A stretch of DNA of 40,512 nucleotides from Deltaproteobacteria bacterium HGW-Deltaproteobacteria-17. GTDB taxonomy: Bacteria > Myxococcota_A > Polyangia > HGW-17. Shown here piece by piece: positions 2,723 to 37,250 of this stretch; positions within the stretch are counted from its first letter, which is position 1, and each line of letters starts with the position of its first letter. The notes beneath the pieces are model-generated. The model did no database searches and was not told the DNA's origin. It saw only the letters and a list, made by a program, of their open reading frames with translations. Both the position numbers and the translations under genes were made by a program. The DNA lies in the NCBI GenBank assembly GCA_002841905.1, contig PHBF01000001.1, positions 1 through 40,512 on the forward strand, in the 5' to 3' direction.

Positions 2723-3043
2723 ATGCATCATCTTCACCGTTTCATCTTTTTCTCAGTTGCGATGGTCCTGGCAGCGACCTCCTGTTCCCACGTCACCTTC
2801 GCGCCGAAGTCCCGACAGGGTTTGATGCTGCTGGCGATCCCGCCTTCGGCCCAGGTCTACGTCGACCACAGGTACTGGGGCACCGGGATCGAACTGGAGC
2901 GGATCCCCCGCCTGCTCCCCATCGGACGTCACGAGCTGCTGATCGTCACGCCGGACCATTATCCCTACTACTCCACCTTCACCCTCAAGGCGCATGAACT
3001 GCTGCGCCGCAGGCCCGGGCTGGTCCGGATCTCGGAGAAATGA
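2723..3043 (+). CDS. Small PEGA-domain-like lipoprotein
   Basis: 106 aa. Signal peptide with lipobox (VLAATS-C). The body VYVDHRYWGTG...LPIGRHELLIVTPDHYPYYSTFTL resembles the PEGA motif (VxVDG..G.TP....l..G.H.l.v...GY). Confidence 0.6.
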   Translation: MHHLHRFIFFSVAMVLAATSCSHVTFAPKSRQGLMLLAIPPSAQVYVDHRYWGTGIELERIPRLLPIGRHELLIVTPDHYPYYSTFTLKAHELLRRRPGLVRISEK

Positions 3044-3046
3044 CCG

Positions 3047-4165: not shown

Positions 4166-4216
4166 TTGGCGGTCGTTCGTATACATGGTAATAATACCGG
4201 CACAGGAGGACGACGG

Positions 4217-6295
<2,079 letters not shown>

Positions 6296-6314
6296 CACCC
6301 ACGGCAGGTGACCC

Positions 6315-7424
<1,110 letters not shown>

Positions 7425-7429
7425 ACCCC

Positions 7430-10335: not shown

Positions 10336-13193
10336 AGCAATCATTTCTCGTCTTTTTCTTGTTTGTTTTTTCCTGTTCAGCCTGTGAAACCGACCTCAAG
10401 GAAGGCCACTATACCTGCGATCCCAATGAACCGGGTGCCTGCCCCGACGGCTGGGTCTGCCAGTTGCGCGGCACCGACGGCATCTATCGCTGCTACGAGA
10501 CCGCCGGTGCCTATTGTCAGAACGGCGTGCTCGATCCCGGCGAGATCTGCGACGGCACCGACCTGGGCGACTTCACCTGTGAGGCCGGCTGGCCCATCTG
10601 CCTGACCAACTGCACCGCGATCTGCACCGAGTGCGGCAACGGCCACATCGAGCTCAACGAGTTCGGCGTGGGTGAGGAGTGCGACGACGGCAACTCCGAC
10701 GATGGTGACGGCTGCTCCTCGGAGTGCCTGATCGAACGCTCCTACTGCGTCGAACGCGACTCCGACGAATGCCTCAACTGGTGCGGCGACGGCATCATCA
10801 ACGGACCCGAACTGTGCGAACCCGGCAACCTCGGCGGCTACGACTGCACCGACTTTGGCTTCCACGACGGAACCCTGGGCTGCACGGCCGACTGCCGGGC
10901 CTTCGACGACTCCGCCTGCGCGCACTACTGCGGCGACGGCCAAATCCACGAGGTCGAGTCCTGCGACAGTTCTAATACAAATCATCAGCAATGCACTGAT
11001 TTTTACTTCAGCGGTGGCACCCTTGGCTGTGAATCAAACTGCTCATTCTCATTTTCTAATTGTTTCAATAGTTGGAAACGTCAGATTATCAGCACATTTG
11101 GAACCATTTCCGCGATCCATGGCACCGGACCTGAAAATGTTTTCGCTGTCAGTCTAAATGGGTGGATTGGCCAATGGGATGGTATATCCTGGACCGAATT
11201 CTCGATCGCTGGAAGTCCGATGTTGAACGGAGTCTTCACCAACGGCCCGAACGATGCATGGGCCATTGCATCAAACGGCACGGTACTTCAATTTGACGGG
11301 ACCCAATGGAATGATTCCATTTTTCCTCCCTCTACTTTAATATTGGGCATTTGGGGCAGCGCTTCTGACGACATGTACATTGTTGGCCAGGTCGAAGAAA
11401 TCGTCGTCGAGGGTGGTATCGAAGTCCCATATCGAGTTGGAGCTTTGTTTCACTACAATGGTGCCATCTGGCAAGAACTCTTCCGTCTTCCTGTTTCAGA
11501 GCTTGAGACTTCCCTAAAATCGATCTCCGGATCTGGGCCCGAAGACATCTGGGTTTCTGGAGATAATGCATCTCTATTTCATTACGACGGGATGGGTTGG
11601 ACACCAGTTAATCCTCCGGTTGAATGGACGGGAATCATCGACTTGAAGGTTCATGTCGTCGATTCCACCAGAATGATTCTACTTGCCATCGACAGCAATT
11701 ACTCTACTTATGGCGCTATCCATGAATTTGATTTTTTTAGACTACTGAACTTTGAACCTTCCACCAGAGTTACCGGCATCAGCGGAGGGACGCTTTTTGA
11801 TCTCGTCATGACCGTCGGTAATGCGCAGGTATTGCGCCTCGATGGAGATGCTTGGAGAACCCTGACTCCCGTACCACAAAGTCAGTTTTATTCCATCTGG
11901 AGCTATGATGGCGTCTTTTGGGTTGGCGGAAGCAACGGTTTACTGTTGAGATACGATGGAGATTTTGAATATTCATCTAAGGTCTTCTCTGAATCGATGA
12001 CTCGCATATGGGGTCCTAACAATGATGAATTATACGTCCTCAGTTTGTTCGGAAAAGTATATCACCTTGAAAATGGTTCTTGGACGCAAGAAACGGTCCC
12101 TGTCGGCTTGTCCCCCAAGGATCTCTGGGGCCCTGATGAGAATTTTATCATTGCGGTTGGATCCCAGGGAAAAACCGCAGTACGTCGTGACGGCGCCTGG
12201 AGTGCGCTTCCTTCCATCCCATCGAGCGTTCAAACCCTGTTTGCCGTACATGGATGTGATCATCAAAACATTTGGTCGGTCGGGCTATCCGGTCATATTC
12301 GAAAATTTGAAAATGATAATTGGATCGTCCAAACGCTTTCCGAAGTTTCGAGTACTCTTAACGACGTTTTCTGCAATAGTCCCACTGATGTATGGGCGGT
12401 AGGAATGAACGGAACTATACTGCACTATGACGGAAGCGTTTGGACATCCGTAGATTCTGGTACTAGCGAAACGCTCCAGTCAGTTTGGGCCAATAGCGAA
12501 GATAACGTATACGCCGTCGGGAACAATGGAATAATTCTACATTTCGATGGTGATTCCTGGTCCCGAATGGAATCCCTTGTTGGAATCACGCTTCGCGACA
12601 TCCAGGGTACAAATGCCCGTGACATCTGGACCGTTGGAAGTTCTGCCAACTTGCTCCATTATGATGGGATTCGTTTTTCCCCTATGACCATTCATGGATA
12701 TCCGGTAACAAATCGAATCCATATTCGCCCCAACGGAAACCGTGTAATCACGGCTGATACAAAATACATGGAATACCACAGTGCAGGTTTTATAAATGAC
12801 ACTTGTTTTTCTACCATTCCCCTCTACTGTGATGAAAACCGGTTCTTCGATACCGAGGGCCTCCCTGCTCGGTTTGATCAGTATCAAAATAATATTGGGT
12901 TTTCTGGCGCGGAAGCTTCATTTAATTTCACAGCTCCATTTTCCGGTCGGTTTAGTTGGACCCTGAGCCATACCTCTGCAAATACCCGCATCATTGCAAT
13001 TTCTGAGGACAAAGCAAACGACTGTGATACTTCACAAATTATTGGTATTTCAACTATTGGCCTCAACCCTGATACTCAGACCTTGGAATTATTGCTCGAA
13101 AGAAATTCCAAAATAATAATTGTTCTAGATTCATCAAATGCAACAACTGGGTATATTCATTCTGTTTGTGAGCGTATGGGCTATGTCAATTAA
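10332..13193 (+). CDS. Mosaic secreted/lipoprotein-like protein: Cys-rich repeat module, about 13-unit beta-propeller-type repeat array, and a C-terminal beta-rich domain
   Basis: 953 aa. Its ATG overlaps the upstream stop (ATGA at 10332-10335). Signal peptide MKQSFLVFFLFVFSCSAC. Four Cys-rich repeats of the CGNG/CGDG...ECDDGN..DGDGC type. Recurrent hYDGxxW units follow. The first 212 codons are GC-rich and the remainder is AT-rich. Confidence 0.85.
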   Translation: MKQSFLVFFLFVFSCSACETDLKEGHYTCDPNEPGACPDGWVCQLRGTDGIYRCYETAGAYCQNGVLDPGEICDGTDLGDFTCEAGWPICLTNCTAICTECGNGHIELNEFGVGEECDDGNSDDGDGCSSECLIERSYCVERDSDECLNWCGDGIINGPELCEPGNLGGYDCTDFGFHDGTLGCTADCRAFDDSACAHYCGDGQIHEVESCDSSNTNHQQCTDFYFSGGTLGCESNCSFSFSNCFNSWKRQIISTFGTISAIHGTGPENVFAVSLNGWIGQWDGISWTEFSIAGSPMLNGVFTNGPNDAWAIASNGTVLQFDGTQWNDSIFPPSTLILGIWGSASDDMYIVGQVEEIVVEGGIEVPYRVGALFHYNGAIWQELFRLPVSELETSLKSISGSGPEDIWVSGDNASLFHYDGMGWTPVNPPVEWTGIIDLKVHVVDSTRMILLAIDSNYSTYGAIHEFDFFRLLNFEPSTRVTGISGGTLFDLVMTVGNAQVLRLDGDAWRTLTPVPQSQFYSIWSYDGVFWVGGSNGLLLRYDGDFEYSSKVFSESMTRIWGPNNDELYVLSLFGKVYHLENGSWTQETVPVGLSPKDLWGPDENFIIAVGSQGKTAVRRDGAWSALPSIPSSVQTLFAVHGCDHQNIWSVGLSGHIRKFENDNWIVQTLSEVSSTLNDVFCNSPTDVWAVGMNGTILHYDGSVWTSVDSGTSETLQSVWANSEDNVYAVGNNGIILHFDGDSWSRMESLVGITLRDIQGTNARDIWTVGSSANLLHYDGIRFSPMTIHGYPVTNRIHIRPNGNRVITADTKYMEYHSAGFINDTCFSTIPLYCDENRFFDTEGLPARFDQYQNNIGFSGAEASFNFTAPFSGRFSWTLSHTSANTRIIAISEDKANDCDTSQIIGISTIGLNPDTQTLELLLERNSKIIIVLDSSNATTGYIHSVCERMGYVN
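10512..11063 (+). repeat. Four tandem Cys-rich protein repeats (Myxococcus-type cysteine-rich repeat)
   Basis: Units by eye are YCQNGVLDPGEICDG..C..C, CGNGHIELNEFGVGEECDDGNSDDGDGCSSEC, WCGDGIINGPELCEPGNLGGYDCTDFGFHDGTLGCTADC and YCGDGQIHEVESCDSSNTNHQQCTDFYFSGGTLGCESNC. Units 3 and 4 align position for position. Confidence 0.7.
11094..12690 (+). repeat. About 13 degenerate 40-50-aa protein repeats of the hYDGxxW type (beta-propeller blades); coordinates approximate
   Basis: Anchors seen in order: IGQWDGISW, VLQFDGTQW, LFHYNGAIW, LFHYDGMGW, IHEFDFFRL (degenerate), VLRLDGDAW, LLRYDGDFE, VYHLENGSW, AVRRDGAWS, IRKFENDNW, ILHYDGSVW, ILHFDGDSW, LLHYDGIRF. Each is preceded by a (D/N)hWAVG-like strand. 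Confidence 0.65.
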
Positions 13194-24315: not shown

Positions 24316-24471
24316 CTAGTCTTTTCCCGTGGACGTCCGACCGGGCACTCGGGGCGCGGAAAAAGATCGGAGAAGAGGCAGTTTCATGAGCAGGGAGGGC
24401 GTTTGATATAAATTATTCAAGGAGAGTCCTCTTGGGCGGCCCGAAGGCGAGGGGAGAAATCTGCGGAAGGC

Positions 24472-27400
24472 CTAGACCGTCTCGAGCAGCGCCTTGAGCT
24501 CGGCGTGGTTCGGATCCTCGGCCAGACCACGCTGGATCGAGGACTTCGCCTTGGCGGCGTTGCCGGTCTTGATCTCGATCTTGGCGATCTCCAGGAAAAT
24601 CTGAGCCTTGGTGATCTCTCCTTCGATCCGCTGGAACAGCAGCGCGCGGAACATCCGCTGGGCCTGGTCATAGTTCTCCTGCCGGGCATAAAGGCCGGCC
24701 ATGGAGATGAGGTTCGGCACGTAGGTCGTATCGGCCTTCTGCGACTGGATGTAGAGCTCCAGCGCAGCGTCGAGGTCGCCCTGGCTTTCCTTGATGCCGC
24801 CGAGCCGCTGGTACAGGGGGGCCAGGTCCTTGCGGGGCGCCTTGGCGGCCGCCAGTTCATCGAGGAGCTTCTGGTAGACCTCGGCGGCCTTGGGGTAGTT
24901 CGCGGCGGCGAAGTAGGCGTCACCGAGCCGTTGCTTGATCTCCATGTTGGTCGGATCCAGCGTCAGGGCTTCTTCCAGCGCCGGGAAAGCGGCTTCGGAG
25001 GCGCCCAGTTCAATATACAGATCCGCGAGCTGGCGCAGCAGCGCCAGACGCGGGGTCTTCTCGGTGATCAGGGGCAGCCGCTTCTGCATCAGCCGAAGAA
25101 TGGCCTCCTTGTCCCCGGCGGCCCGGGCGCGCTCGGAGAGCACCTCGAAGGTCTCCTGGTGGGCCGGATAGAGGCGGATCGCCTCCTCCCAGCAAGACAG
25201 GGCCTTTTCACCGTCGCCCAGCTTCTCGGCGACCTTGCCGCGCCGGAAGGCCAGCTCCGCGCCGTCCTGGCCCTGAGGCTCCAGGAGGGCTGCCTTTTCG
25301 AGATATTGCTGGCAATGCTCCCAATCCTGCATGTTCTCGAAGAGGCGCGCGAGCCCCGTCAGGGCCGTGACCGATGCCGGATCGTTCTCGAGGATCCGCT
25401 CCAGGATCCTGCGCGCCTCGGTCGGGCTCTCGAGCTTCTCTTCCCAGAGACGGGCCAACTGGTCCAAAGCCTGGAGTTCCAGGCGGCGATCGCCACGGGC
25501 GGCGAAGAAGTCGGCGCGCTTCTGCAGGACATCGGCCAGCTCGTAGTACCGCTCACCTTCAATCAGTACCTTGGAGAGCTTCTCGAAGATCTCGCCGTAC
25601 TGCGGGTCGACTTCCAGGATCTGCATCCAGTAGCCGACCGCGTCGTCGATCTCCTTGAGCTGGTTCATGGACAGGTTGGCCAGATCCTCCAGCACGGACA
25701 GCCGCTCGGAATCCACCGAAGCCTGGCCCAGTCGTGTGAAGAACAGATCCTTGACGGCGTCCCAGTCGGCTTTTTCTTTATATATAGCCATCAATGCCAG
25801 ATAGGCCGGCTCGAAGGAGGGATCACTGTCATAGGCCTCACGCCATTGCTCCTCGGCCAGCTCCTTCTGGTTCAACTTCTCGTCGTAGGTCTGGGCGATC
25901 CGCTGACGAAGCCTCTGCTGATCGTGAGGCGCAGGCATATAATTAATCTTGGTTTTCATCACTTCGATCAGTTCGTTCCATTTTTCCATCCGCTCAAACA
26001 GGCGGATCAACTGATCCTGGGCGACCAGATCGCTCTCATCGGACTCCAGAAGGTTCTTCCAGGCGCTCTCGGCCAGGGCCAGATCATTGAGCTGGGTCTC
26101 GGCCAGGTTGGCGACTTCACTGCAGATGGACTTCTTGGTGTTGGGATCGTATTCCTGCTCGGCCCGCTTCTGGAGGATCGCCACCAGTTTCTGGGTGTCG
26201 TCTCCCACGCGGTACAGGTTTTCGAGGGCCCTAATGGCGTCCATGTTCTCCCCTTCGCGGGAAAGCACGGCGAGGTAGAGTTTTTCTCCGGAGACCACGT
26301 CGCCGACGGAGAGGGCCAGCGGGGCCACGCGCAGCGCCATGGCGATGGCGGCCATCTCATCGATCTCCCGGCCGAGGATGTCCAGCACCGTGGTCAGCAC
26401 GGTCGGAATCCGATCCGCGTTCTGGGCCAGCTCAATGAACGACTCCAGCAGCATGACGTTGTCCGGCGCGAGGGCCACGCCTTGCGCGAGCAGGGTGATG
26501 GCTTTATCCAGATATCCCATGACCTTGCACAACTGGGCCGCGCGCTCCAGGAGACCGGCCCGATCGCCGGCGTCTTCGGTCAGCGTGACGCGCACCTCAA
26601 GCACCATCACCAATTTATCGTTTGCCCCCATCCTTTCGTAGGCGGGCTCCAACACTTCGAGGGCCAGCGCCACCAGGGGACCACCGGAACCCAGCAGGGC
26701 CTCGAGCTCACGGAAGATCTCCGGATGGTCATCCTGGAAGTTCAAGGCTTCCTGCCATACTTCAATCGCGTCTTCGCCCTTGTTGAACTGGTGCAGGTTG
26801 AGATGTCCCAGACGATACAGGAACTGTGCCTTGGTCGCGCCGTCGGTGGCGTCGGCCTGGGCGCGGAGCACCTCCTGCAGGTCCTCATGCTTCTGGGTCG
26901 CCGTCAGCAGGCGATCGAGCTGGGCCAGGATCTCCAGATCCGAAGGAACCGCATCGAGGCCCTTCTTCAGGGTATCGATCGCGGCCTCCGTGTTCTCGAG
27001 GCTCACTTCATACAATTGCGTGACGGTCAGGATCAACCGCTTGCGCAGGGTCGGCTCGTACACGTCGTTGCCGGCCTCGTCGAGCAGATCCACCAGCCGT
27101 TGCCACTTGCCGCTGGCGGCCGTGATGCGCATCAACTGGCCCTCCACCTCGGTGTCGGCCGGGTTCTCCCTGAACAACCTTCCCCAGTATTCAAAGGCAT
27201 GATCCAGATCGTTGCCCTGTTCATAAATCATTGCAATTGTACGCAACAATTTTTCCTTGACCGCGGGCTCCACCGCCACCTCCAGCAGCAGTTCATTCAA
27301 ATGAATGAGCTTGCCGGACTGTGACTGTTCCAGATACAGGGGCTCCAGGATCGTGGCGGCCTGCGGACGGAAGTCCTCCCCTTCGAGCAGCTCCTCGAGG

Positions 27401-30400
27401 GCGCCGATGGTCTTCTCATGGCGAGAGTCAAACTCGAGAATGGACTGGTACTTCTTGATCGCCTGTTCGACATCGCTGACCTCATGCTGCAGGACGTGGG
27501 CGATGCGGAAGATCAGTTCATTTCGCTTTCCATCCTGCGGCTCAAGGACGACCATCTGATTGAGCGTCTGGATCAACTCCATCCAGTTCTGCTCCTTTTC
27601 ATACAGGCGGGAGCAGGACTGCAGGGCCAACAAATGATCATGGGAGGCGGAGAGGATCCGCTGCAGGGTGGAGATGGCTTCGTAGTTGTCCTCGAGCTTC
27701 TCCTCCTGGATGCGGGCGAGCTTGAGGGCCACCGCGAAGTCCGGCGTCTCGGCCACCTCGGCCAACTGCCGGAGCACTTCGGCCAGCTCGGTCCAATTTT
27801 CACTTTGCTCATACAGCGCTTCCAGCGCGCGCAGGGCGCCGGATTCGTTGGGCTCGACCTCGAGCAGCCGCTTCCAGGTCTCCACCGCCGAAGCCGGCAA
27901 TTCCAGTTTCTGTTGCAGCAGCGCCAGTTGGCGCAGCGTCCGGACGCTCTCTGCGGGTTCGTGCAGCAGGTAGGAGCGGCGATCCAGGATGGTGTTCAGT
28001 TCCTCCCAGGCCTCCATCTCCTCGAGCAGGATCGACAACTCGGTCAGGGCCTCGAGGTGATCCTCCTGGACCTCGAGCACGCGCAGGTAGCTCTTGCGGG
28101 CCTCGGCGGGCTGGGTCAGGATCTCGGCCTGGATCCGGGCGATGCGCAGCAGGACGGTGACCTGCAGGTCCGTGTCGTAGGCGTCCTTGATGCCCTTTTC
28201 ATAGACTTCAATGCACTGTGCCCAATTGGATTGGCGAACCGCCAACTGGTACAGCGCCTCAAAGAGATCCCGGTCCGTGCTGTCCAGCAGCCAGGCCTGG
28301 CTCAGGGAGGCAAACGCCCGATCGAGGCGGTTGCCGCGGGTGTCGTACAGGTCCGCGCATTCCTTGAGATATTCGATCTTCTGATATTGATCGTCGATCC
28401 CTTCGATCTGGATCTCATACACGTTGACGAGGTCTTCCCACTGATCCAGATTCTGATAGATCGGCTGCAGCAGCGCCGCCGCCCGCAGGGAGATGTCTTC
28501 GGTCAGCAGCAGGCTCTCCAGGAACAGAATCGCCTGTTCGTGCAACGGCTCAATCTGAAGGATGGCCTCGATCCGATCCACGGCCGAGATCGGATCCGCC
28601 AGCTTCTCGTGATACAGTTTGGCCAGCGTCAGGTTGAGCTCGCAGAGCTCGCGGGGCTCATGCTGCTGCTGTTGCACCAGGACCAGCAGATGCTCGACCA
28701 GATCTTCCCAGCGCTCCAGGCGCGTGTACAGGCGGCGCAGGGCGGTGTTGGCCACGTTGTCGTCCGGGGCGCCCACCAGGATTTCCTTGTAGGTGTCCAC
28801 CGCGTCTTCATATTTTTCCAGTTTATCCTCAAACACCGAGGACATCTTGAAGAGATACTGGTTCTTCTTCTCCGGATCGTAGTAAGCCTCCGCGGCCTCG
28901 CGGTAGATCGTCAGCAGATCATCCCAGCGCTCAGCCGTCAGGAGCATCAACTCGAGCTCAGCAAAGATGTCCTTGCGGTTGTGATCGGCGTCGAGGATCC
29001 GCTTGTAGCACTTGCGGGCCTCCTCCACCTTGTGGAGGCGGTTGGAATAGATCCGGGCCAGATGCTCGGCGACCTCGAGGACGTAATCCAGATCGGCATA
29101 CGCCTCCTCGAGGACCTTGGCGAAGACCTCGGAGACCTCCTGCCAGCGACCCAGGCTGTCGGCCAGCGAGAGCAGACGGCTGCGGACCGCGCGATCCGAA
29201 GGGGTCTCCACGAAGAGATAGCCGTACCACACGAAGGCGCTGTCCATGTCCTCGAGGACCGCGTCATAAAGACCGGCGATCTTCTTGGTGATCGGCGCAC
29301 GCTCTTCGACGGTCTCGAGCATCTGCCGCTGCAGGGAGAACACCCGGATCAGTTCCTTCCAGTTCTGGCGCGAGGCGTAGATCGGGACCAGGGTCTCGGC
29401 CGCGGAGGCGGCGTGGGCCTCGACGTCGAGGAATTTCTCCAGGCGGCGGATGGTGTCCTCGCGGGTGGGATCACCACCCAGCGCTCCCTTGAACATCTCC
29501 AGGGCGCGCTCCGGTTCGTCAAGATAATCCTGATAGATCTCACCCATGTTGTACCGAATCTCCACCGCCTCCTTCAACTCGGAGACGTAGCGGATCCGGT
29601 GTTCGTACAACTCGATGAGATCTTCCCAGCCTTCCTGGTCAAAGTACAATTCTTCCAGTGCGCGGAAGATGACAGAATCTCCAGGACGGAATTCAATGAT
29701 TTCCTTGTAGTGAACGATCGCATCCTTGGGCTTCTTCAATTGCTCCTTGCACAGGGTGGCTGCAAGAACCAGGGCCGAATACCGTGCATCCGGGTCGTTG
29801 TAACCCAACTCGGCGCGCTTGAGATAAATGCCCATGAGCGCTTCCCAGTCGGCCATTTCCTTGTACACATACTCCAAAGCATCCAGGGCGTGCATCGAAT
29901 CCGGTCGCTGCTCCAGCACCTTCTGATAATAGATACGCGCCAGGTCCAGATTCTTCAGTTCGTCGCGGGATACATCGGCGATGATCAGAAAGACCTTCTC
30001 CTGGAGATCGGTATCCAGGATTTCATCCACATTTTCCTTGTACATTGCCACAAGTTCCGCCCACTTGTTCTCCATGGCGGCCAGCCGTTGAAGGTTGTCC
30101 AGCACATCTCCGAGCATCGGGAGCGCCAGACACTCCTTGAGGGCCTGCCCATAGAATCCGAACGCGGCGCCGGGTTCGTGAAGTTCGCCCTCTTTGATTT
30201 GGGCAATTTTCACAAAAAGATCCACCTTCTCCTGGGAATCCATGGAATAGCCGGCCTTGAGCACATACAGGCCTGTCAGTTTCTCCCAGTTGTCTTCAAG
30301 CTCGTAGATCTTCTCCAGGATCGAGGCGGCTTCCAGCGCCAGCATTTCATCTCCCAGAAGCATGGTCTCCAAGGCCAGTTTCGCCTTTTCATGTTCGGGG

Positions 30401-33400
30401 TCCTGTTCGATCACATCGCGATAGAACGCGATCGCCCTGGCCGGCTCCTCCAGATGAACCTGCAGGATGTAACCCAGGCGATACAGGAGCGCGTGGCGGT
30501 TCTGTTCGTTGGTGGTCAACGCCAGCTCGCGCTCGACGAGATCGAAGACGTCCGCCCAACGGCCCAGCGCCTCATTGAGGCGGGCCAGGTAGCGCAGCGA
30601 CTCCCCATCCTCGGGGAACTCGGACAGGATCGCGGCCCAGGCCTCGGCTGCCCCTTCGATGTTCTGCAGGCTCTCCTCACGCAGGATCGCGATGCGTGAA
30701 TAGAAATCCCTGCGGGTGCCCGGGTCGAGGGAGAGCTCGGCCCGTCGGGACAGCACTTCGACCAGCTTTTCCCATTTCTCCAGCCTGGAATAAATGTATT
30801 CCAGACGATCCAGTGCATCATCGTCCTCCGGGAACTCCCCGAGCAACTGATGATAGGTGTTGGCTGCGTCCTCGAGCGCGTCGAGCATGTCCTCCTGCAG
30901 CGAGGCGACCTTGCGGTACACGCCCTTGCGCTCCCGGGGGTTGTCCAGCCAGCCCAATTGACGGCGATACAGATCGATGACGTCGATCCACTCGTCCATC
31001 GTCGAGAGCAGCAGGATCAGCGACTGCGTCGCCTTGGACTGGATCTCCACGTAGTCTCCGGAGACCGAGAGCAATTTCTTGTACCAGAAGACCGCCTTCT
31101 CCGGATCGGACAACTGCCGCTCATAGAGCTGGGCAATCTTTTCAATATAGAGCATCGACAGTTCCAGATCGTCCCCGGCGGCCGTGATCGCTTCATTCCA
31201 CACCTCGATCAACTCGGCGGTGTTACCGGAGAGATCCACCAGCTCCTCGAGGGCATGCCGCACCTCGAGGTTGCCCGGCTCCAGCTTCAGCGCCCGACGC
31301 CATGCCGAGAAGGCCTGTTCGGGCCGTCCAAGCTGGACGGTGAACAATTTGCCTTGACGGGACAGGATGCCGACGGCCTCATCACGGCTTTCGGCGGCTT
31401 CGAGTTTGACCTCCAGGAGCTCCACGATTTTTTCAAAGTTGGTCTCATGCTCAAAGAGGTTCAGGAGGATGTCGGCGGCCGACTGCCTCGTCTGGGGCTT
31501 CTCCAGCGACTCGTTCAGCATCGAGCGTGCGGAAATGTGACTGGAATTGAGCGACAGGATTTCCTGGAGCAGCGATACGGCGTCCGGAGCACGGTCGAGC
31601 TTGTGCATGAGCAGGTCCGCGCGCTGGATCATCAATAAGATACGCTGTTCATTGTTGCGGGTGTAGGCCAGCTCATCCTGATACAGGTCGGCCAACTGGG
31701 CCCAGTCCTCAGCGAGGTCATACAGGCGCTGCAGGGCCACGAAGGCCTCCTGTGATCCGGCCTCGAGCTGCCGCAACTGCCGGTAGGACGCAATCGCCGC
31801 GTCCACGTCCCCCAGGATGTTTTCATTGAGCGCGCTCAACTTCAGGAGCATGGTCTTCTGCTGGTCGGGATCGCTGAGCACCTCGACGCGGTTTTCGATC
31901 AACAGGCGCAGGTCCTTCCAGCGCTCCGCCGAGGTGGTGATGCGCTCCAAGGCCGCAAACGCCTGGTCATGCAGGGGTTCCTCCTCGAGCACCATGCGGT
32001 AGTACTTCTCCGACTCCGCCTGATCATGGAGCTCCTCTTCCTCGAGCAGCGCGACCTCCCAGGCCAGCGTCAGTTTCAACTCGGGCTTGACCGACAGCGT
32101 CTCGATGTAGAGATCCTTCAACTGGGGAATCTGATCCTCCAGGATGGCCAGCCGGCGCAGCTCCTGCCGCACGTCGGCGTTGCCCGGGGACAACGAGAAG
32201 AGCACGCGCGCGATGTCGAGACCACGGGTCGTGTCCCCCACGCGTCGCACGGTGATGTTCAGCAGCTCCAGATAGTGCTGGATCTTCAGGTCTTCATCCT
32301 GCTCCATCGTGGCGATGACTTCCAGGGAACGCGCATAGGCCTCCCAGTTTTCCATGCGCAGATAGCACGGCGCCAGCAACTGGGCGGCAGAGCGGCGCAC
32401 CGCGGGATCACGGGAAGGCTCCAGCATCGTCTCCAGGGAGGACAGGGCGCCGGCGTGATCGGGTACCTCTCCCAGGATCGTCTCAAAGCAGGCCAGGGCC
32501 TCCTGAGCATCCGACAGGGGACCCAGGTACAGACGCCCCAGGCGCAGACGGAAGGCGATCCGCTGCTCGCCTTCGGAGAGGTTCTCCTGCTGACGAAGGA
32601 TGTACGCCAGATTCTCATACATGCGGCCGGCCTCGTAGAGACGATCCAGCGCGGCCAGGGCGGGCAGGTAATCGGAGGCCAGGGAGATGATTTTCTTGTA
32701 CATCTCGATGGCCTCGCCCGTCTTGTCCAGGTGAACCTCGAGAAGCTGGGCCATCTTCATCATGGCCGCCAGACGATCGTTCAACTGCGGCGCGCTCGAG
32801 ATCTGCCTGTTCAGGATCTCCAGCAGCTCCGTCCAGTTCTGACGCAACTCATAAATCGACGCCAACCCCATCAGGGCCTCACCGCTCTCGGGCTCCTGTG
32901 CGAGCACGGCACGCCAGATCCCCTCGCCCTGTTCGAGGGCGACGAGCTGGTGGACGTACAGGTTGGCCAGGCGGGACATCAACCGAATCTTTTCGCCGCC
33001 CGAGAGGCGGTCGAGCACTTCGGAGTAGATTTTGGCGAGGGCTTCCCAGTTCCGGGAGGCCTCGGCGAGCTTCTCCAGCCGGGTGATGATCGCGTCGTCC
33101 TGCGGGTCGATGACGTAGGCCTGCGCACACCAGTTGAACGCGGGCTCGGCCTGGTTCAACTTCTCCTCGCAGACCATCACCAGTTTCTGCAGGTGGGCCA
33201 GACGCTGGGATGGCTCCGTGCAGGAGGCCAGCAGGATCTCGACCATGCGGGCGACCTCCTTCCAGCGACCGGCTTCTTCATAAATCGGCAGCAGCAGGGC
33301 CGCGGCCCTGGCGTTGCCCGGTTCCACCTCGAGGATGCTCTCGTAGGACTTGATCGCGCGCTCTGGTTTCTGCAGCCTGTCGGTGAAGACATTGGCGATC

Positions 33401-35610
33401 TTGAAGAACAACTGGATCTTCTCGTCGGGGGCCGTGGCCGCCTCGGCGCAGTCATGCAGCGTCTCGATGTAGCCGACCCAGTTTTCGCGATCGGCGAAGA
33501 GCCCTTCGAGCGCCTCCCAGTCCCGGTTGGTGCTGTACAACTCCTTGAGGATCTTCATGGCCTTGGGATGACCGGGACGATACTCCAGCACGGTCTTCCA
33601 CGTGCTCATGGCGATCTCCCCGGTGGCGCCCATCTTGTCGGTCAGGATCGCGCCGGTCTTCTCCAGCAGGGCCAGCGCCTCGTCGCCCACGCTCATGGCG
33701 ATCTTGCGACGCAGCATCTCCACCAGGGCCGGAAACCGCTTCTCGCGTTCATACAGCGAAATGAGGCTCTCGAGCGCGTCGATGTCGTGGGGATCGAACT
33801 CGAGCACGCGGTTCCACATCTCGATCGAGAGCACGGCGTTCCCGAGCGGCTGCTGGGCAAAGCGGGCCAGGTCGATGAACTTCTCCCGCTGCTCGTGCTC
33901 GGGCATCAGGTTGATTTCCTTCAACTGCAGCTCGAACAGGCCCTTCCAGTTGCGCCGCTTCTCGTAGATGTCCTTGAGCGCGGTGATGGTCTCGAGATCG
34001 GCGGGGTCCACCTCGAGGATCTGCTCGAGGGGCTCGGCCGCCTTGTTGGGGTTGGACAACTTCGTGCCCCACAGGTTCGCGATCTGCTTGAGATAATTCT
34101 TCTTTTTCGCAGGATCGGTCTCGCTGGCGTTCTTCTCCTCGTAGATCACGATCACGTCGCGCCAACGGCCCATGGACTCGTACTTCTCGGCCAGGGCGTC
34201 CATGGCCCTTGGATGGTGCGGATCCAGCTTCAGGATGGCGTTGTAGACGTTGACCACCATGGCGTCGACCTTCATCTTCTCCTCGATGAGCTCCGCCATG
34301 TCCATCAGGACCGAGATGCGCCCGGCGATGTCGTCGGTCGGCAGCGCGTGCTCGACGTCCTTGTACAGTTCCATCAGGGCGTTCCACTTCTCGCCCCGGA
34401 AGTACAGATCCTTGAGCGCGTCGATCGCCGCGGTGTTCATCTTGTCCATCTTCAGGATGCGCTTCCACACGTCGATGGCCTTCTCAGGGCTCTTGTCGAC
34501 CGAGATCTCCGAGATCCGGCGCGCCAGTTCGACGCTCTTGTCCACGTCGTTGGCGACGGCACGCATGGCCTGCTGCAGCATGGTCAGGTGCCGCATGTAG
34601 TCATCCTTGGCCACGTAGTACTCGCTGTAGAAGTTCATCACCAGCGGGGACATGTTGTCGCCCTTGCGCAGCTTGGAGAAGTACTGCTCTGCGGTGTCGA
34701 GGTCGCCGACCTTCTTCCACCACAGCATGCCCAGTTGCAGGCTCATCTCCTCGGCGTTGGAGCCGTTCTTGAGCTCGCTCTCGTACAGGGCGATCAGGTC
34801 CTCCCACTTCTCCTGCTGCGTGAACGCCTCCACCAGCAGCATGGAGGTCTTCTCCATGCCCGGGATGAGTTGTGCCACCTCCTTCAGGTGTTCCTCGGCC
34901 AGTTGGGGCTGATGCGTGTGCTCCAGTTCGAGGTAGGCGACCTCGAGCAGGCAGGCAGCGCGCTCCTGGGTGTCCGTGACGCGGGGCAGCTTCTCCCGCA
35001 GGAAATCGGCCAGCTCCGCATAGCGCTTCTGCGCGCGATAGAGATACTCGATGTGCTTGATGGTGTCCGAGTGGCCCGGATCCATCTCGAGCGCCTTTTT
35101 CAGAAGCTCTTCGACACGGTGGAGGTCCGACCCGTACTTGGCGGCCACCTCCGCGGCCCTGAAGTACATGTGCGTGGCCCACTGGGGCTCCGACGCACTG
35201 TCGGCCTCGGCGGTGTACTTCTCGAGCATCTTCTCCCAGTTGCCGGCTTCCTGTTCCAGGGCTTCGAGCCGGGAGACCGCCTCATCGTTCTTCGGATCGA
35301 GCTCGGCGACCCGTCGATACATCCCCAACGCCTCCACGCCCAGCCACAGCTCCTCGTCGAGCATCCGGGCGATCGCGGAGATCAACTCCAGATCGTCGGG
35401 CTGCCGGCGCTCGGCGAACCGGTAAAACCGGTGCGCCAGCTCCAACTGCTTGGCCAGGAGAGCGCGCTGCGCAGCCTTGACCAGGACAGCCGCCAGCTCC
35501 TGTGCCGGCTCGTCGCTGGAGAGCACGAGATTTTCCAGCTCCTCCAGCATGTGATTGTCGCTCGGGGTATTGAAGAGGTTCGCGATGAGTGTCTTGATTT
35601 CCTTCATCAT
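24472..35610 (-). CDS. Giant (3712 aa) all-alpha TPR/solenoid repeat protein, no other recognisable domain
   Basis: Single uninterrupted 11,139-nt ORF with host-like GC-rich codons. Throughout, a recurring unit reads A(I/V)..Y..(I/V)L...P....AL..LE.LY......W..L(h)..(Y/L). Roughly forty W/F-x-x-L anchors were counted by eye (e.g. KWEDLIALY, RWRDVIVIY, NWEALAKIY, RWEDLVEHL, KWNELIEVM). Canonical TPRs occupy the last ~350 aa. No signal peptide or TM segment is seen. Confidence 0.9.
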   Translation of the reverse strand: MMKEIKTLIANLFNTPSDNHMLEELENLVLSSDEPAQELAAVLVKAAQRALLAKQLELAHRFYRFAERRQPDDLELISAIARMLDEELWLGVEALGMYRRVAELDPKNDEAVSRLEALEQEAGNWEKMLEKYTAEADSASEPQWATHMYFRAAEVAAKYGSDLHRVEELLKKALEMDPGHSDTIKHIEYLYRAQKRYAELADFLREKLPRVTDTQERAACLLEVAYLELEHTHQPQLAEEHLKEVAQLIPGMEKTSMLLVEAFTQQEKWEDLIALYESELKNGSNAEEMSLQLGMLWWKKVGDLDTAEQYFSKLRKGDNMSPLVMNFYSEYYVAKDDYMRHLTMLQQAMRAVANDVDKSVELARRISEISVDKSPEKAIDVWKRILKMDKMNTAAIDALKDLYFRGEKWNALMELYKDVEHALPTDDIAGRISVLMDMAELIEEKMKVDAMVVNVYNAILKLDPHHPRAMDALAEKYESMGRWRDVIVIYEEKNASETDPAKKKNYLKQIANLWGTKLSNPNKAAEPLEQILEVDPADLETITALKDIYEKRRNWKGLFELQLKEINLMPEHEQREKFIDLARFAQQPLGNAVLSIEMWNRVLEFDPHDIDALESLISLYEREKRFPALVEMLRRKIAMSVGDEALALLEKTGAILTDKMGATGEIAMSTWKTVLEYRPGHPKAMKILKELYSTNRDWEALEGLFADRENWVGYIETLHDCAEAATAPDEKIQLFFKIANVFTDRLQKPERAIKSYESILEVEPGNARAAALLLPIYEEAGRWKEVARMVEILLASCTEPSQRLAHLQKLVMVCEEKLNQAEPAFNWCAQAYVIDPQDDAIITRLEKLAEASRNWEALAKIYSEVLDRLSGGEKIRLMSRLANLYVHQLVALEQGEGIWRAVLAQEPESGEALMGLASIYELRQNWTELLEILNRQISSAPQLNDRLAAMMKMAQLLEVHLDKTGEAIEMYKKIISLASDYLPALAALDRLYEAGRMYENLAYILRQQENLSEGEQRIAFRLRLGRLYLGPLSDAQEALACFETILGEVPDHAGALSSLETMLEPSRDPAVRRSAAQLLAPCYLRMENWEAYARSLEVIATMEQDEDLKIQHYLELLNITVRRVGDTTRGLDIARVLFSLSPGNADVRQELRRLAILEDQIPQLKDLYIETLSVKPELKLTLAWEVALLEEEELHDQAESEKYYRMVLEEEPLHDQAFAALERITTSAERWKDLRLLIENRVEVLSDPDQQKTMLLKLSALNENILGDVDAAIASYRQLRQLEAGSQEAFVALQRLYDLAEDWAQLADLYQDELAYTRNNEQRILLMIQRADLLMHKLDRAPDAVSLLQEILSLNSSHISARSMLNESLEKPQTRQSAADILLNLFEHETNFEKIVELLEVKLEAAESRDEAVGILSRQGKLFTVQLGRPEQAFSAWRRALKLEPGNLEVRHALEELVDLSGNTAELIEVWNEAITAAGDDLELSMLYIEKIAQLYERQLSDPEKAVFWYKKLLSVSGDYVEIQSKATQSLILLLSTMDEWIDVIDLYRRQLGWLDNPRERKGVYRKVASLQEDMLDALEDAANTYHQLLGEFPEDDDALDRLEYIYSRLEKWEKLVEVLSRRAELSLDPGTRRDFYSRIAILREESLQNIEGAAEAWAAILSEFPEDGESLRYLARLNEALGRWADVFDLVERELALTTNEQNRHALLYRLGYILQVHLEEPARAIAFYRDVIEQDPEHEKAKLALETMLLGDEMLALEAASILEKIYELEDNWEKLTGLYVLKAGYSMDSQEKVDLFVKIAQIKEGELHEPGAAFGFYGQALKECLALPMLGDVLDNLQRLAAMENKWAELVAMYKENVDEILDTDLQEKVFLIIADVSRDELKNLDLARIYYQKVLEQRPDSMHALDALEYVYKEMADWEALMGIYLKRAELGYNDPDARYSALVLAATLCKEQLKKPKDAIVHYKEIIEFRPGDSVIFRALEELYFDQEGWEDLIELYEHRIRYVSELKEAVEIRYNMGEIYQDYLDEPERALEMFKGALGGDPTREDTIRRLEKFLDVEAHAASAAETLVPIYASRQNWKELIRVFSLQRQMLETVEERAPITKKIAGLYDAVLEDMDSAFVWYGYLFVETPSDRAVRSRLLSLADSLGRWQEVSEVFAKVLEEAYADLDYVLEVAEHLARIYSNRLHKVEEARKCYKRILDADHNRKDIFAELELMLLTAERWDDLLTIYREAAEAYYDPEKKNQYLFKMSSVFEDKLEKYEDAVDTYKEILVGAPDDNVANTALRRLYTRLERWEDLVEHLLVLVQQQQHEPRELCELNLTLAKLYHEKLADPISAVDRIEAILQIEPLHEQAILFLESLLLTEDISLRAAALLQPIYQNLDQWEDLVNVYEIQIEGIDDQYQKIEYLKECADLYDTRGNRLDRAFASLSQAWLLDSTDRDLFEALYQLAVRQSNWAQCIEVYEKGIKDAYDTDLQVTVLLRIARIQAEILTQPAEARKSYLRVLEVQEDHLEALTELSILLEEMEAWEELNTILDRRSYLLHEPAESVRTLRQLALLQQKLELPASAVETWKRLLEVEPNESGALRALEALYEQSENWTELAEVLRQLAEVAETPDFAVALKLARIQEEKLEDNYEAISTLQRILSASHDHLLALQSCSRLYEKEQNWMELIQTLNQMVVLEPQDGKRNELIFRIAHVLQHEVSDVEQAIKKYQSILEFDSRHEKTIGALEELLEGEDFRPQAATILEPLYLEQSQSGKLIHLNELLLEVAVEPAVKEKLLRTIAMIYEQGNDLDHAFEYWGRLFRENPADTEVEGQLMRITAASGKWQRLVDLLDEAGNDVYEPTLRKRLILTVTQLYEVSLENTEAAIDTLKKGLDAVPSDLEILAQLDRLLTATQKHEDLQEVLRAQADATDGATKAQFLYRLGHLNLHQFNKGEDAIEVWQEALNFQDDHPEIFRELEALLGSGGPLVALALEVLEPAYERMGANDKLVMVLEVRVTLTEDAGDRAGLLERAAQLCKVMGYLDKAITLLAQGVALAPDNVMLLESFIELAQNADRIPTVLTTVLDILGREIDEMAAIAMALRVAPLALSVGDVVSGEKLYLAVLSREGENMDAIRALENLYRVGDDTQKLVAILQKRAEQEYDPNTKKSICSEVANLAETQLNDLALAESAWKNLLESDESDLVAQDQLIRLFERMEKWNELIEVMKTKINYMPAPHDQQRLRQRIAQTYDEKLNQKELAEEQWREAYDSDPSFEPAYLALMAIYKEKADWDAVKDLFFTRLGQASVDSERLSVLEDLANLSMNQLKEIDDAVGYWMQILEVDPQYGEIFEKLSKVLIEGERYYELADVLQKRADFFAARGDRRLELQALDQLARLWEEKLESPTEARRILERILENDPASVTALTGLARLFENMQDWEHCQQYLEKAALLEPQGQDGAELAFRRGKVAEKLGDGEKALSCWEEAIRLYPAHQETFEVLSERARAAGDKEAILRLMQKRLPLITEKTPRLALLRQLADLYIELGASEAAFPALEEALTLDPTNMEIKQRLGDAYFAAANYPKAAEVYQKLLDELAAAKAPRKDLAPLYQRLGGIKESQGDLDAALELYIQSQKADTTYVPNLISMAGLYARQENYDQAQRMFRALLFQRIEGEITKAQIFLEIAKIEIKTGNAAKAKSSIQRGLAEDPNHAELKALLETV

Positions 35611-35700
35611 TTCGGCTCTCTTTGACTACTCGGCTAGTTGGTTGTGAAATGCCACAAAAGACATGGCGAGAGCGTAACGCCTATGTTAAATGGATGCAAT

Positions 35701-35732
35701 CAAAAAAGGTGTTTTGACAACAGTCTTTTTTG
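35701..35732. repeat. Imperfect 32-nt inverted repeat/hairpin in the 261-nt spacer upstream of the giant TPR gene
   Basis: CAAAAAAG (35701-35708) pairs perfectly with CTTTTTTG (35725-35732). An inner stem TGTT/AACA (35710-35713 / 35719-35722) closes a 5-nt loop. It could act as a terminator for the upstream lipoprotein gene or as a protein-binding palindrome; the function is unknown. Confidence 0.35.
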
Positions 35733-35871
35733 GGTGGACGATCCCTGTCGGGGCGGGGTCCCGCAGCATGGTGATGGAGGTCATCCGCAGGACTTCGGGC
35801 AGTCCGGTGGATTCACCGCGGCAAAAGAATAATAAATAAATTTTTACAATATCAAGAAAATTTGGAACAAA

Positions 35872-36357
35872 TTATATACCTGAGACGAACAGCCACTTGT
35901 CCTTGTGTTTCTCCAGCGTCAGGCGCATGTAGTCGGTCTTCTTCTCCCACCGGTTGTCCTCACCCACGATCAGTTGGTAGGAACCGTCGAGGTAGACCTC
36001 GACCGAGACGCGTTCGGCGCTCTCCCATTTGATCCGGCGGTACTGGATGTCCAGCCGGACGTTCTTGAGCTGGGCAAAGCGCTGGTGAACGGCCTGGGCA
36101 AGGCCTTTCCGATCATACGCCTTCTCGTCCGAGGAGGTCTTGGGCTGGTAATAGTTCGGGTGGGCCAACTGGATCAGGGCCTCGGCGTCCATGGCGATCA
36201 GGATTCGGCGATAATTCTCAACCACCTCGATGATTTCCTTGTTCGCCCGGGTGGCCGGAATCCGGGTGCCGGCGATGAACGAGGTCTTCGCGCAGCCGGC
36301 GAAGAACGCCAGCGCCGTCAGCGTGTACAGGACCCATTGAAGCTTGCGATGCGTCAT
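35872..36357 (-). CDS. Small lipoprotein (161 aa), possibly NTF2/SnoaL-like fold
   Basis: The ORF track runs to 36969 over prmA, which is an artefact. The ATG at 36357 overlaps the prmA stop (ATGA at 36354-36357). Signal peptide with lipobox LAFFAG-C. The fold assignment is only an impression from the pattern of the C-terminal strands. Confidence 0.7.
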   Translation of the reverse strand: MTHRKLQWVLYTLTALAFFAGCAKTSFIAGTRIPATRANKEIIEVVENYRRILIAMDAEALIQLAHPNYYQPKTSSDEKAYDRKGLAQAVHQRFAQLKNVRLDIQYRRIKWESAERVSVEVYLDGSYQLIVGEDNRWEKKTDYMRLTLEKHKDKWLFVSGI

Positions 36358-37250
36358 GACTGTCCTCCCGTGGCGGGTTTCTCGAACACCACCAGTTCCC
36401 ACTCGCCCTCGTGCCAGCCCCGGACCACCGGCAGGTTCGTCTTCTCGCGGATCTCGTCGATCTGATCGTTGAGGATGCCTGAGAAGACCATCCGGCCGCC
36501 GGGTTCCAGGTTCCGCTGGAACAGGGGATTGAGCTCCAGCAGGACGTCGCGCTGGATGTTGGCCAGCACCAGATCCACAGGGGTCTCGGACCATGACAGA
36601 TCCACCTGGATCCGGTCCGCGAGGCCGTTGTTCGCGATCACCTCGGCGGCGGTCTCGACGGCATCCGGATCGTTGTCCACGGCCCAGATCCTCGCCTCGG
36701 GAAACAGGCTCGCCGCGGCCATGGAGAGGATGCCCGTGCCCGCGCCCATGTCCAGGATGCGCGTGGGGCGGAAGCCCGAGGCGTGCAACTGCTCGATGGC
36801 CTCCATCACCAGCCGCGTCGTGGCGTGCAGCCCGGTGCCGAAGGCCATGCCCGGATCGATGACGAACACCGTGTCCCCGGGCTCGGGCACCACTTCCTTC
36901 CACGACGGCCGGATGACAAAATGCCCGATCCGTTGCACGTCGAAGGCCTTCTTCCAGAACTCGTTCCACTCCTGCCGGGTGATGGGCACCATGCGGAAGC
37001 GCGCGGAGAGCTCCTCCTCGGCCTGATCCAGCGAGGCCGCCAGGACCGGGTTGAGCCGCTCCAGGAAGGCCTTCTCCGTGCCCTGCTCGATGTAGGCCAC
37101 GACCCGCGTCGTGCCACGGTCCTCCGCAAAGAGGGTGGTCGTGTCCCGCACCTCCACGCCCATGGCGCCGGCCCAGACGAACAGGGCAGCCACCTCATCC
37201 TCCTGCTCGGTGGTCACCGGCAGGGAGACCTCGACCCATTCATTTAACAT
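36354..37250 (-). CDS. prmA: Ribosomal protein L11 methyltransferase
   Basis: 298 aa. N-terminus WVEVSLPV..EDEVAALF, then IDPGMAFGTGLHATT and the SAM motif ILDMGAGTGILSMAA, with GGRMVFSGIL near the C-terminus. Confidence 0.9.
   Translation of the reverse strand: MLNEWVEVSLPVTTEQEDEVAALFVWAGAMGVEVRDTTTLFAEDRGTTRVVAYIEQGTEKAFLERLNPVLAASLDQAEEELSARFRMVPITRQEWNEFWKKAFDVQRIGHFVIRPSWKEVVPEPGDTVFVIDPGMAFGTGLHATTRLVMEAIEQLHASGFRPTRILDMGAGTGILSMAAASLFPEARIWAVDNDPDAVETAAEVIANNGLADRIQVDLSWSETPVDLVLANIQRDVLLELNPLFQRNLEPGGRMVFSGILNDQIDEIREKTNLPVVRGWHEGEWELVVFEKPATGGQS

What the first reader, a model, noticed from the sequence alone, without database searches (positions are those of the whole stretch)
24472..35610. 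3712-aa protein made entirely of TPR-like super-repeats (11.1-kb gene)
A single ORF occupies 27% of the window. By eye the whole protein is helical repeats with a recurring longer unit: a TPR-like pair ending in ...AL..LE.LY......W..L...Y, followed by a helix pair beginning with a charged or Pro turn. Roughly forty W/F-x-x-L anchors are spaced some 70-90 aa apart. I found no catalytic, nucleotide-binding, membrane or export signal. Codon usage is host-like, so the gene is resident rather than imported. A roughly 420-kDa cytoplasmic solenoid scaffold is unusual, and I do not recognise it as a characterised family. The repeats are diverged at the DNA level, so this is not a recent expansion or an assembly artefact of identical repeats.
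Basis: partly seen in the sequence, partly recalled or inferred. Interest (0 to 1): 0.6.

Follow-up and report, generated by a model that had tools for sequence, protein, structure and literature searches.

The report
Giant GltI-like TPR scaffold paralogue
The 11.1-kb gene is real and intact, and it encodes a 426-kDa acidic rod of about 50 helical repeat modules that belongs to an unstudied sister family of GltI/AgmK, the giant scaffold of the myxobacterial gliding motor, so it is a variant of a known kind of protein and its own role is untested.

Summary
Window 24472-35610 (minus strand) is one intact ORF of 3712 aa (425.8 kDa, pI 4.7, net charge about -248). It is TPR-like from the first to the last residue, with a strict 72-residue super-repeat. 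Its codon usage matches the neighbouring genes and its repeats are diverged at the DNA level.

The protein is collinear with hundreds of Myxococcota proteins of 3700-3900 aa. That family (clade A) is the sister paralogue of GltI/AgmK (clade B), the giant cytoplasmic TPR scaffold of the Myxococcus Agl-Glt gliding machine.

It is not the GltI orthologue:
- This genome has its own clade-B copy, split over contigs C285 and C507.
- Clade B lies next to gltG in dozens of genomes and ends in a conserved domain of about 300 aa that is not TPR.
- Clade A lacks that domain, has about 470 extra N-terminal residues, and was never seen beside glt genes.

Both clades share the 72-aa module and a five-helix "marker" module at conserved spacings. 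There are seven in this protein.

Most likely it is a multivalent cytoplasmic scaffold; its partners are unknown. Earlier agents of this scan reached the same "GltI sister family" reading on other genomes.

The parts
24472..35610 (-). Complete gene for the 3712-aa clade-A giant TPR protein (P0001). The stop codon is at 24472-24474.
34201..35610 (-). Residues 1-470, an N-terminal TPR extension specific to clade A. GltI-type proteins begin aligning only at about residue 470.
33931..34471 (-). Residues about 380-560, the most conserved stretch across 54 clade-A proteins. Invariant residues include W382, L402, L412, R482-W483, W514 and E529.
26545..32502 (-). Residues 1037-3022, the core that carries the seven 5-helix marker modules. 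They start at residues 1037, 1343, 1725, 2034, 2342, 2715 and 2946, and are spaced 306, 382, 309, 308, 373 and 231 aa apart.
24475..26613 (-). Residues 3000-3712, the C-terminal end. Helical hairpins run to the last residue, with canonical TPR_1/2/8 hits at 3451-3586. The C-terminal domain of GltI-type proteins is absent.
35611..35871 (-). A 261-nt upstream spacer holding one sigma-70-like promoter match (35855-35826). A purine-rich stretch precedes the ATG.

Best explanation
The gene encodes a soluble, very acidic, all-alpha TPR solenoid of 3712 residues.

Architecture. It is built of about 50 four-helix modules of 72 residues. Seven five-helix modules of about 89 residues interrupt them at fixed positions.

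Family. It belongs to a Myxococcota family of tightly conserved length (clade A) that arose by an ancient duplication of the ancestor of GltI/AgmK (clade B). It keeps GltI's repeat architecture. It lacks GltI's C-terminal globular domain, carries about 470 extra N-terminal residues, and is encoded away from the glt genes.

Likely function (inferred by analogy with GltI and with other long TPR solenoids, not shown). It probably acts as a long multivalent cytoplasmic scaffold or ruler that holds several copies of one or more partners along its length. In the genomes examined it was seen only alongside a GltI-type gene, so a role connected with the Agl-Glt or a Glt-like envelope machine is the leading guess, but it remains a guess.
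For: - The ORF is intact, and orthologues keep its length.
- Only TPR families are found.
- The 72-aa period is clear.
- AlphaFold2 models of residues 1700-2500 and 3000-3712 are all helical hairpins with mean pLDDT 90.4 and 90.8. Each marker module shows one extra helix.
- Foldseek returns long TPR scaffolds: Ctr9, IFT-A TTC21B, Ski3, TTC7 and the OGT TPR domain.
- There are two clades. 119 of the 120 best hits score about twice as high against non-glt giants as against glt-adjacent giants. The tree splits 30/30 with 100% support on both sides.
- Clade B is GltI. In locus L054 the giant follows GltC-, GltD-, GltE-, GltF- and GltG-like genes. The best GltG hit lies 2-10 kb from the clade-B giant on the same strand in dozens of genomes.
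- This genome has its own clade-B copy on C507 plus C285.
- The C-terminal domain of about 300 aa is present in 125 of 126 clade-B sequences and in none of 121 clade-A sequences.
- Marker modules recur at the same spacings in both clades.
- Co-occurrence, from a hand tally: 31 of 39 same-class genomes have A and B, 7-8 have B only, and none has A only. Controls are.
- GltI's role comes from PMC4508894 (localises to focal adhesions, needed for gliding) and PMC11761067 (rod of about 1100 A with six predicted GltG-FHA sites).
Against: - There is no direct evidence of function, partners, localisation or expression.
- Gene neighbours are not conserved across the clade, so no operon partner can be named.
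- The marker modules are no more conserved than ordinary modules (0.508 against 0.515; 3306 of 5000 random sets did as well). Conservation therefore does not single them out as docking sites.
- The lack of GltI's C-terminal domain may mean the protein does not dock to the Glt machine at all.
- The co-occurrence tally rests on searches that scored only two candidates per genome.
- GltG-like genes occur in many genomes that have no giant (164 of 201 against about 100 of 201).
Confidence: 0.75

Rival explanations
1. It is this organism's GltI/AgmK orthologue, the gliding-motor scaffold itself, merely relocated away from the glt genes.
For: It is homologous and collinear with GltI-type proteins over about 3200 aa at 24% identity. 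It has the same 72-aa module and the same marker spacing. In this lineage the clade-B gene is not next to gltG either.
Against: The genome has a separate copy that groups with all glt-adjacent giants. P0001 lacks the C-terminal domain found in 125 of 126 clade-B proteins. The tree split has 100% support.
Confidence: 0.04
2. It serves ribosome or translation-factor biology and is co-expressed with prmA, engB and rimI, rather than serving an envelope machine.
For: The gene order pyrB-like, prmA, giant, engB, rimI, 557-aa ORF is kept in six relatives down to 77% identity. In three of them engB starts only 3-19 nt after the end of the giant gene match.
Against: The order is confined to this sub-clade. 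More distant clade-A genes sit beside an aminotransferase and PS decarboxylase, ABC exporters and a HEAT protein, or NikR and an ion channel. In this window the gap to engB is 156 nt. An earlier scan note on a relative reached the same conclusion.
Confidence: 0.08
3. It is a cytoplasmic scaffold for a process unrelated to Glt-type machines, for example polarity, cytoskeleton or signalling. Its co-occurrence with GltI would then reflect shared ancestry only.
For: It has no glt neighbours anywhere and lacks GltI's C-terminal domain. These genomes hold several further paralogues with the same module (1500-3400 aa), which suggests the module is a general building block.
Against: No genome with clade A alone was seen among those examined. 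The closest characterised relative is a motility protein.
Confidence: 0.3
4. It is a pseudogene or an assembly artefact of collapsed repeats.
For: None was found. The genome is a fragmented MAG (520 contigs, 71% complete).
Against: The frame is uninterrupted over 11.1 kb. The same length is found in independent assemblies. There are no long DNA repeats. Conservation is uniform along the whole length.
Confidence: 0.01

Closest known systems
GltI / AgmK (MXAN_4863) of Myxococcus xanthus and its orthologues, e.g. Adeh_3311 and STAU_5650 (PMC3169522, PMC4508894, PMC11761067)
   Same: Both are giant (3400-4100 aa) cytoplasmic proteins of Myxococcota made only of TPR-like repeats. Both use the same 72-aa four-helix module and the same five-helix marker module, with spacings of about 305, 377 and 233 aa. 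The two are collinear over about 3200 residues.
   Different: The two form separate clades with full support. P0001 has about 470 extra N-terminal residues. It lacks the conserved C-terminal domain of about 300 aa that is not TPR. It has seven marker modules where GltI-type proteins mostly have four. It is never encoded beside gltG or the other glt genes. Nothing is known of its localisation or any phenotype.
Shorter GltI-like paralogues with the GltI C-terminal domain (1486 aa on own contig C232; about 1800 aa in G240, G355 and G380)
   Same: They use the same 72-aa module and occur in the same genomes.
   Different: They keep the GltI C-terminal domain and are less than half as long. P0001 is the reverse: full length without that domain.
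Eukaryotic long TPR solenoid scaffolds (Ctr9 of Paf1C, IFT-A TTC21B/IFT139, Ski3, TTC7, OGT TPR domain)
   Same: They are the best structural matches to the model of residues 1700-2500 (Foldseek E 2e-12 to 1e-8). All are multi-partner scaffolds.
   Different: Only the fold class is shared. TM-scores are 0.12-0.24 and identity is 11-17%. They are three to ten times shorter and have no 72-aa super-repeat.

Membership tests
TPR superfamily | Repeated helix-turn-helix motifs of about 34 residues recognised by TPR profile models | tested here: met
   TPR_19, TPR_14, TPR_8, TPR_1, TPR_2 and others score 88-126 bits, above their cut-offs, along the whole protein. The models are all helical hairpins.
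GltI/AgmK orthologous group (clade B) | Groups in a tree with the giants encoded inside or beside glt clusters | tested here: not met
   P0001 falls in the other clade, and the split has 100% support. Bit scores against its own clade are about twice those against clade B.
GltI/AgmK orthologous group (clade B) | Conserved non-TPR domain of about 300 aa at the extreme C-terminus | tested here: not met
   The domain is present in 125 of 126 clade-B sequences and has no hit in P0001 or any of 121 clade-A sequences. TPR hits and modelled hairpins reach the last residues of P0001.
GltI/AgmK orthologous group (clade B) | Gene lies with gltD-E-F-G-H/J | tested here: not met
   The neighbours here are a small lipoprotein ORF and prmA upstream and engB-rimI downstream. 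The gltG-like genes of this genome are on contig C212. In this lineage the clade-B gene is not glt-adjacent either, so this feature is weak on its own.
GltI/AgmK orthologous group (clade B) | Shared repeat architecture: a 72-aa module plus marker modules spaced about 305, 377 and 233 aa | tested here: met
GltI/AgmK orthologous group (clade B) | Localises to gliding focal adhesions and is required for gliding | not testable with these tools
   These are experimental properties reported for M. xanthus GltI (PMC4508894).
Clade A (uncharacterised sister family of GltI) | Full-length collinear alignment, length 3650-3930 aa, and an N-terminal 440 aa and C-terminal 270 aa that align in register | tested here: met
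   Coverage is 97-100% with most of the 119 clade-A hits. The N- and C-terminal segments align at matching positions in clade A only.
Clade A (uncharacterised sister family of GltI) | Five to seven marker modules at conserved positions (about 1040, 1345, 1725, 2035, 2345, 2715, 2950) | tested here: met
   P0001 has seven. Of 121 clade-A sequences, 106 have five to seven.

The most novel reading that the evidence does not exclude
Clade A is a second giant cytoplasmic rod that works with the gliding or Glt-like envelope machines of Polyangia-type myxobacteria. It could be a ruler or cross-linker that pairs with GltI, or it could cluster FHA-bearing GltG-like transducers. It would then be an overlooked structural component of bacterial focal adhesions.
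Probability: 0.2. Interest if true: 0.65.

Novelty: new variant of a known kind. Interest (0 to 1): 0.4.

Why it matters
GltI is the least understood part of the myxobacterial focal-adhesion motor. It is proposed to gather several motor units on one rod about 1100 A long.

A second rod of equal size is conserved in length and sequence across Myxococcota. In the genomes examined it was seen only together with GltI, yet it lacks GltI's end domain.

This offers a natural comparison for asking which parts of such rods dock to the machine and which only set length. It may also point to an unrecognised partner structure.

For genome annotation, the result gives simple rules to tell GltI from its sister: the C-terminal domain, the N-terminal extension and the marker count.

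Tried and rejected
- **GltI orthologue.** This was my first guess at 50%. The second copy in the genome, the tree and the missing C-terminal domain rejected it.
- **Marker modules as conserved docking sites.** They are no more conserved than other modules.
- **Operon partners from synteny.** None is conserved beyond the immediate sub-clade.
- **A named cultivated carrier.**
  - No hit in three protein searches carries an AgmK/GltI name or the name of a cultivated Myxococcus. All named hits are MAGs.
  - No sampled genome passed the GltG equivalog cut-off.
  - Whether M. xanthus has a clade-A gene is therefore unresolved.
  - One single-contig 9.1-Mb genome of the same class (G240) does have one copy of each clade.
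- **NCBIfam.** It has GltC, GltE, GltG and GltJ models, but none matched P0001.
- **Supplement of PMC11761067.** I looked for the residue ranges of the six FHA sites, but the supplement is not held.
- **Model geometry.** Model coordinates are not exposed, so rise and superhelix pitch could not be measured.

Full report
**Observation**

The minus-strand ORF 24472-35610 is intact and encodes 3712 aa. The product is 425.8 kDa, with pI 4.74 and a net charge of about -248. It has no Walker A, HExxH or CxxC motif. Pfam and NCBIfam report only TPR-type models, spread along the whole length.

The repeat is real. Self-similarity peaks sharply at lag 72, at -0.25 against a mean of -0.81 (sd 0.11). The best value in shuffles is -0.66. 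A unit HMM built from the protein finds 34 complete 72-residue modules, seven longer ones and about eight degenerate ones. Trp anchors are spaced 72 aa apart, or 27+45.

RSCU correlates at 0.975 with ten neighbouring genes. The low-GC island elsewhere in the window gives -0.35. At the DNA level there are only short matches of 61-90% identity.

**Structure**

AlphaFold2 was run with an 11-sequence alignment of window and locus translations.
- Residues 1700-2500 give a mean pLDDT of 90.4 and 44 helices.
- Residues 3000-3712 give a mean pLDDT of 90.8, with hairpins to the last residue.
- A regular module has four helices.
- The borderline-hydrophobic stretch at residue 3088 is an ordinary solenoid helix.
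- Foldseek against the PDB returns long TPR scaffolds (Ctr9, TTC21B/IFT139, Ski3, TTC7, OGT) with low TM-scores, which means the same fold class only.

**Higher-order periodicity**

Seven modules carry about 17 extra residues, which form one extra helix. They share the pattern LE..L.......AA..L.P.Y.....W..L. They start at residues 1037, 1343, 1725, 2034, 2342, 2715 and 2946, with spacings of 306, 382, 309, 308, 373 and 231 aa.

The same markers sit at the same positions in relatives down to about 30% identity. Of 121 sequences, 106 have five to seven.

They are not more conserved than ordinary modules. I therefore cannot claim that they are binding sites. The most conserved stretch is residues 380-560.

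**What family it is**

The protein database holds more than 670 relatives. The best 120 are nearly all 3650-3930 aa long, align over 97-100% of the query, and are labelled Myxococcota or "Deltaproteobacteria".

The only studied giant TPR protein of this phylum is GltI/AgmK of M. xanthus.
- It is 3822 aa long and cytoplasmic.
- It localises to gliding focal adhesions and is required for gliding.
- It is modelled as a rod of about 1100 A with six predicted binding sites for the FHA domain of GltG (PMC3169522, PMC4508894, PMC11761067).

I first expected orthology. Whole-genome searches then showed that many Myxococcota genomes hold two giants, and that this genome has a second one on contig C507.

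**Deciding which is GltI**

*Position next to glt genes.*
- In five well-assembled genomes the best AgmX/PglI-tail hit lies directly beside the giant that matches P0001 less well.
- In locus L054 that giant follows genes matching NCBIfam GltC, GltE and GltG, plus a GltD-like TPR protein and a 95-aa GltF-sized ORF. This is the M. xanthus G1 cluster order.
- Across the 201-genome sample, the best GltG match lies 2-10 kb from the C507-type giant on the same strand in dozens of genomes. It is never beside the P0001-type giant in the rows listed.

*Sequence grouping.*
- Pairwise scores separate two groups.
- 119 of the 120 best hits of P0001 belong to the group that is not next to glt genes.
- A 60-sequence tree splits 30/30 with 100% support on both sides. 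All four glt-adjacent giants and the own C507 ORF fall on one side. P0001 and the two giants that are not next to glt genes fall on the other.

Hence clade B is GltI and P0001 is clade A, its sister paralogue.

*This genome's own clade-B gene.* It is split between C285 (N-terminal 309 aa, 91% identical to P0157) and C507 (3157 aa). Full-length relatives are 3501 aa.

**Diagnostic differences**

| Feature | Clade B (GltI type) | Clade A (P0001) |
|---|---|---|
| C-terminal non-TPR domain of about 300 aa | Present in 125 of 126 | Absent in all 121 |
| N-terminus | Starts aligning at about residue 470 of P0001 | About 470 extra residues |
| Terminal segments of P0001 (first 440 and last 270 aa) | Do not align in register | Align in register |
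| Marker modules | Mostly four, spaced 305, 377, 235 | Last three spacings are 308, 373, 231, with three more markers upstream |

**Context**

Upstream of the gene lie a small lipoprotein ORF, prmA, and carbamoyltransferase and amidohydrolase genes. Downstream lie engB, rimI and a 557-aa ORF of unknown family.

This order is kept in six relatives down to 77% identity. In three of them engB starts only 3-19 nt after the end of the giant gene match; here the gap is 156 nt. It is lost in more distant clade-A loci, whose neighbours are unrelated housekeeping or transport genes. No operon partner can be inferred.

The clade-B gene of this lineage is also not beside gltG. It does lie about 7 kb from a MotA/ExbB-ExbD pair. 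The genome's gltG-like gene and a second GltG/J-like gene sit together on C212.

**Distribution**

Either giant is found in about half of 201 sampled genomes of the phylum. GltG-like genes are found in 164 of 201.

By hand tally:
- 31 of 39 genomes of the same class have both clades.
- 7-8 show only clade B.
- None shows only clade A.
- One family (f26) shows only clade B.

A control search with the clade-A N-terminal 760 aa gave 280-425 bits in genomes that carry clade A. In genomes tallied as B-only it gave only 106-156 bits, with nearly all of the strongest matches on the GltI ORFs. G023 and G070 each show a further divergent giant.

Three large genomes of the same class, one a single 9.1-Mb contig, each carry three related genes: one clade-A gene, one clade-B gene beside gltG, and a paralogue of about 1800 aa with the GltI C-terminal domain.

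The large searches scored only two candidates per genome, so the absences are provisional.

**Mechanism**

Shown:
- It is a soluble, acidic, continuous TPR solenoid.
- Its length and sequence are under uniform constraint (conservation 0.41-0.64 in every 75-aa window).
- It is a paralogue of a protein that acts as a cytoplasmic scaffold in the gliding machine.

Inferred:
- It is itself a long multivalent scaffold or ruler.

Guessed:
- It works with a Glt-type machine. The support is co-occurrence with GltI, and the fact that GltI is predicted to bind repeated FHA domains.

Its lack of the GltI end domain argues that, if it does contact the machine, it does so differently.

**Earlier scan notes**

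Earlier agents of this scan examined relatives in other genomes. They reached the same "GltI sister family" reading, including for a 3719-aa relative coupled to engB and rimI. My tests were run independently and agree. Their suggestion that the GltI C-terminal domain resembles an inactive M48 protease was not tested here.

**Limits**

- No named GltI sequence could be placed in the tree.
- The identification of clade B as GltI rests on gene context and on published cluster order and lengths.

**Verdict**

This is a real, well-conserved gene. It is not an orphan kind of protein but an uncharacterised sister of GltI. Interest is moderate, and the scan has found it before on other DNA.

Noticed in passing
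G000 contigs C285:3-1121(-) and C507:12349-21822(-) (L045): This genome's true GltI-type (clade B) gene is split across two contigs. C285 holds the N-terminal 309 aa and C507 holds 3157 aa. Full-length relatives are 3501 aa.
   Followed up: yes
G000 contig C232:1971-6428(-); also C466 (1626-aa ORF open at both ends) and C62:2-2026(-): There are further paralogues built from the same 72-aa module. The 1486-aa C232 protein aligns to the last 1300 residues of GltI-type proteins, including their C-terminal domain. C466 and C62 are fragments of more divergent members.
   Followed up: partly
G000 contig C212 (L011) 6793-8910(+) and 9075-10757(+): A GltG-like gene (FHA domain plus AgmX/PglI tail, NF033760 at 249 bits) is followed directly by a second protein bearing the same tail but no FHA domain. 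A Ser/Thr kinase with PEGA domains lies upstream, and the contig ends 380 nt downstream.
   Followed up: partly
L058 1929-3086(-): In a close relative, a MotA/ExbB-ExbD pair lies about 7 kb upstream of the clade-B giant on the opposite strand. It could be an Agl-type motor, but this was not examined.
   Followed up: no
window about 35872-36357(-): A small ORF lies between prmA and the giant gene. It has a lipoprotein-type N-terminus (MTHRKLQWVLYTLTALAFFAGC...), and the longer ORF call 35872-36969 overlaps prmA. The DNA is conserved in close relatives.
   Followed up: partly
window 5-1036(+): A protein with a zinc ribbon (residues 72-98) and FHA domain matches (best at 273-324). It is 23 kb from the giant gene, and no link was tested.
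   Followed up: no
window 4166-7424(+): A PrkA-type AAA kinase gene is followed by a DUF444 gene, the usual stress-response pair.
   Followed up: no
L002, L003, L006 versus window 24316-24471: The spacer between the giant gene and engB is only 3-19 nt in three relatives. It is 156-163 nt in this window and its two closest relatives, so a segment was inserted or the coupling was lost recently.
   Followed up: partly
G023:C66:12004-14031(-) and G070:C8:37579-38589(-): Two genomes tallied as having clade B only hold a further divergent giant ORF (3352 and 3851 aa open frames). These may be remote clade-A members or a third clade.
   Followed up: no
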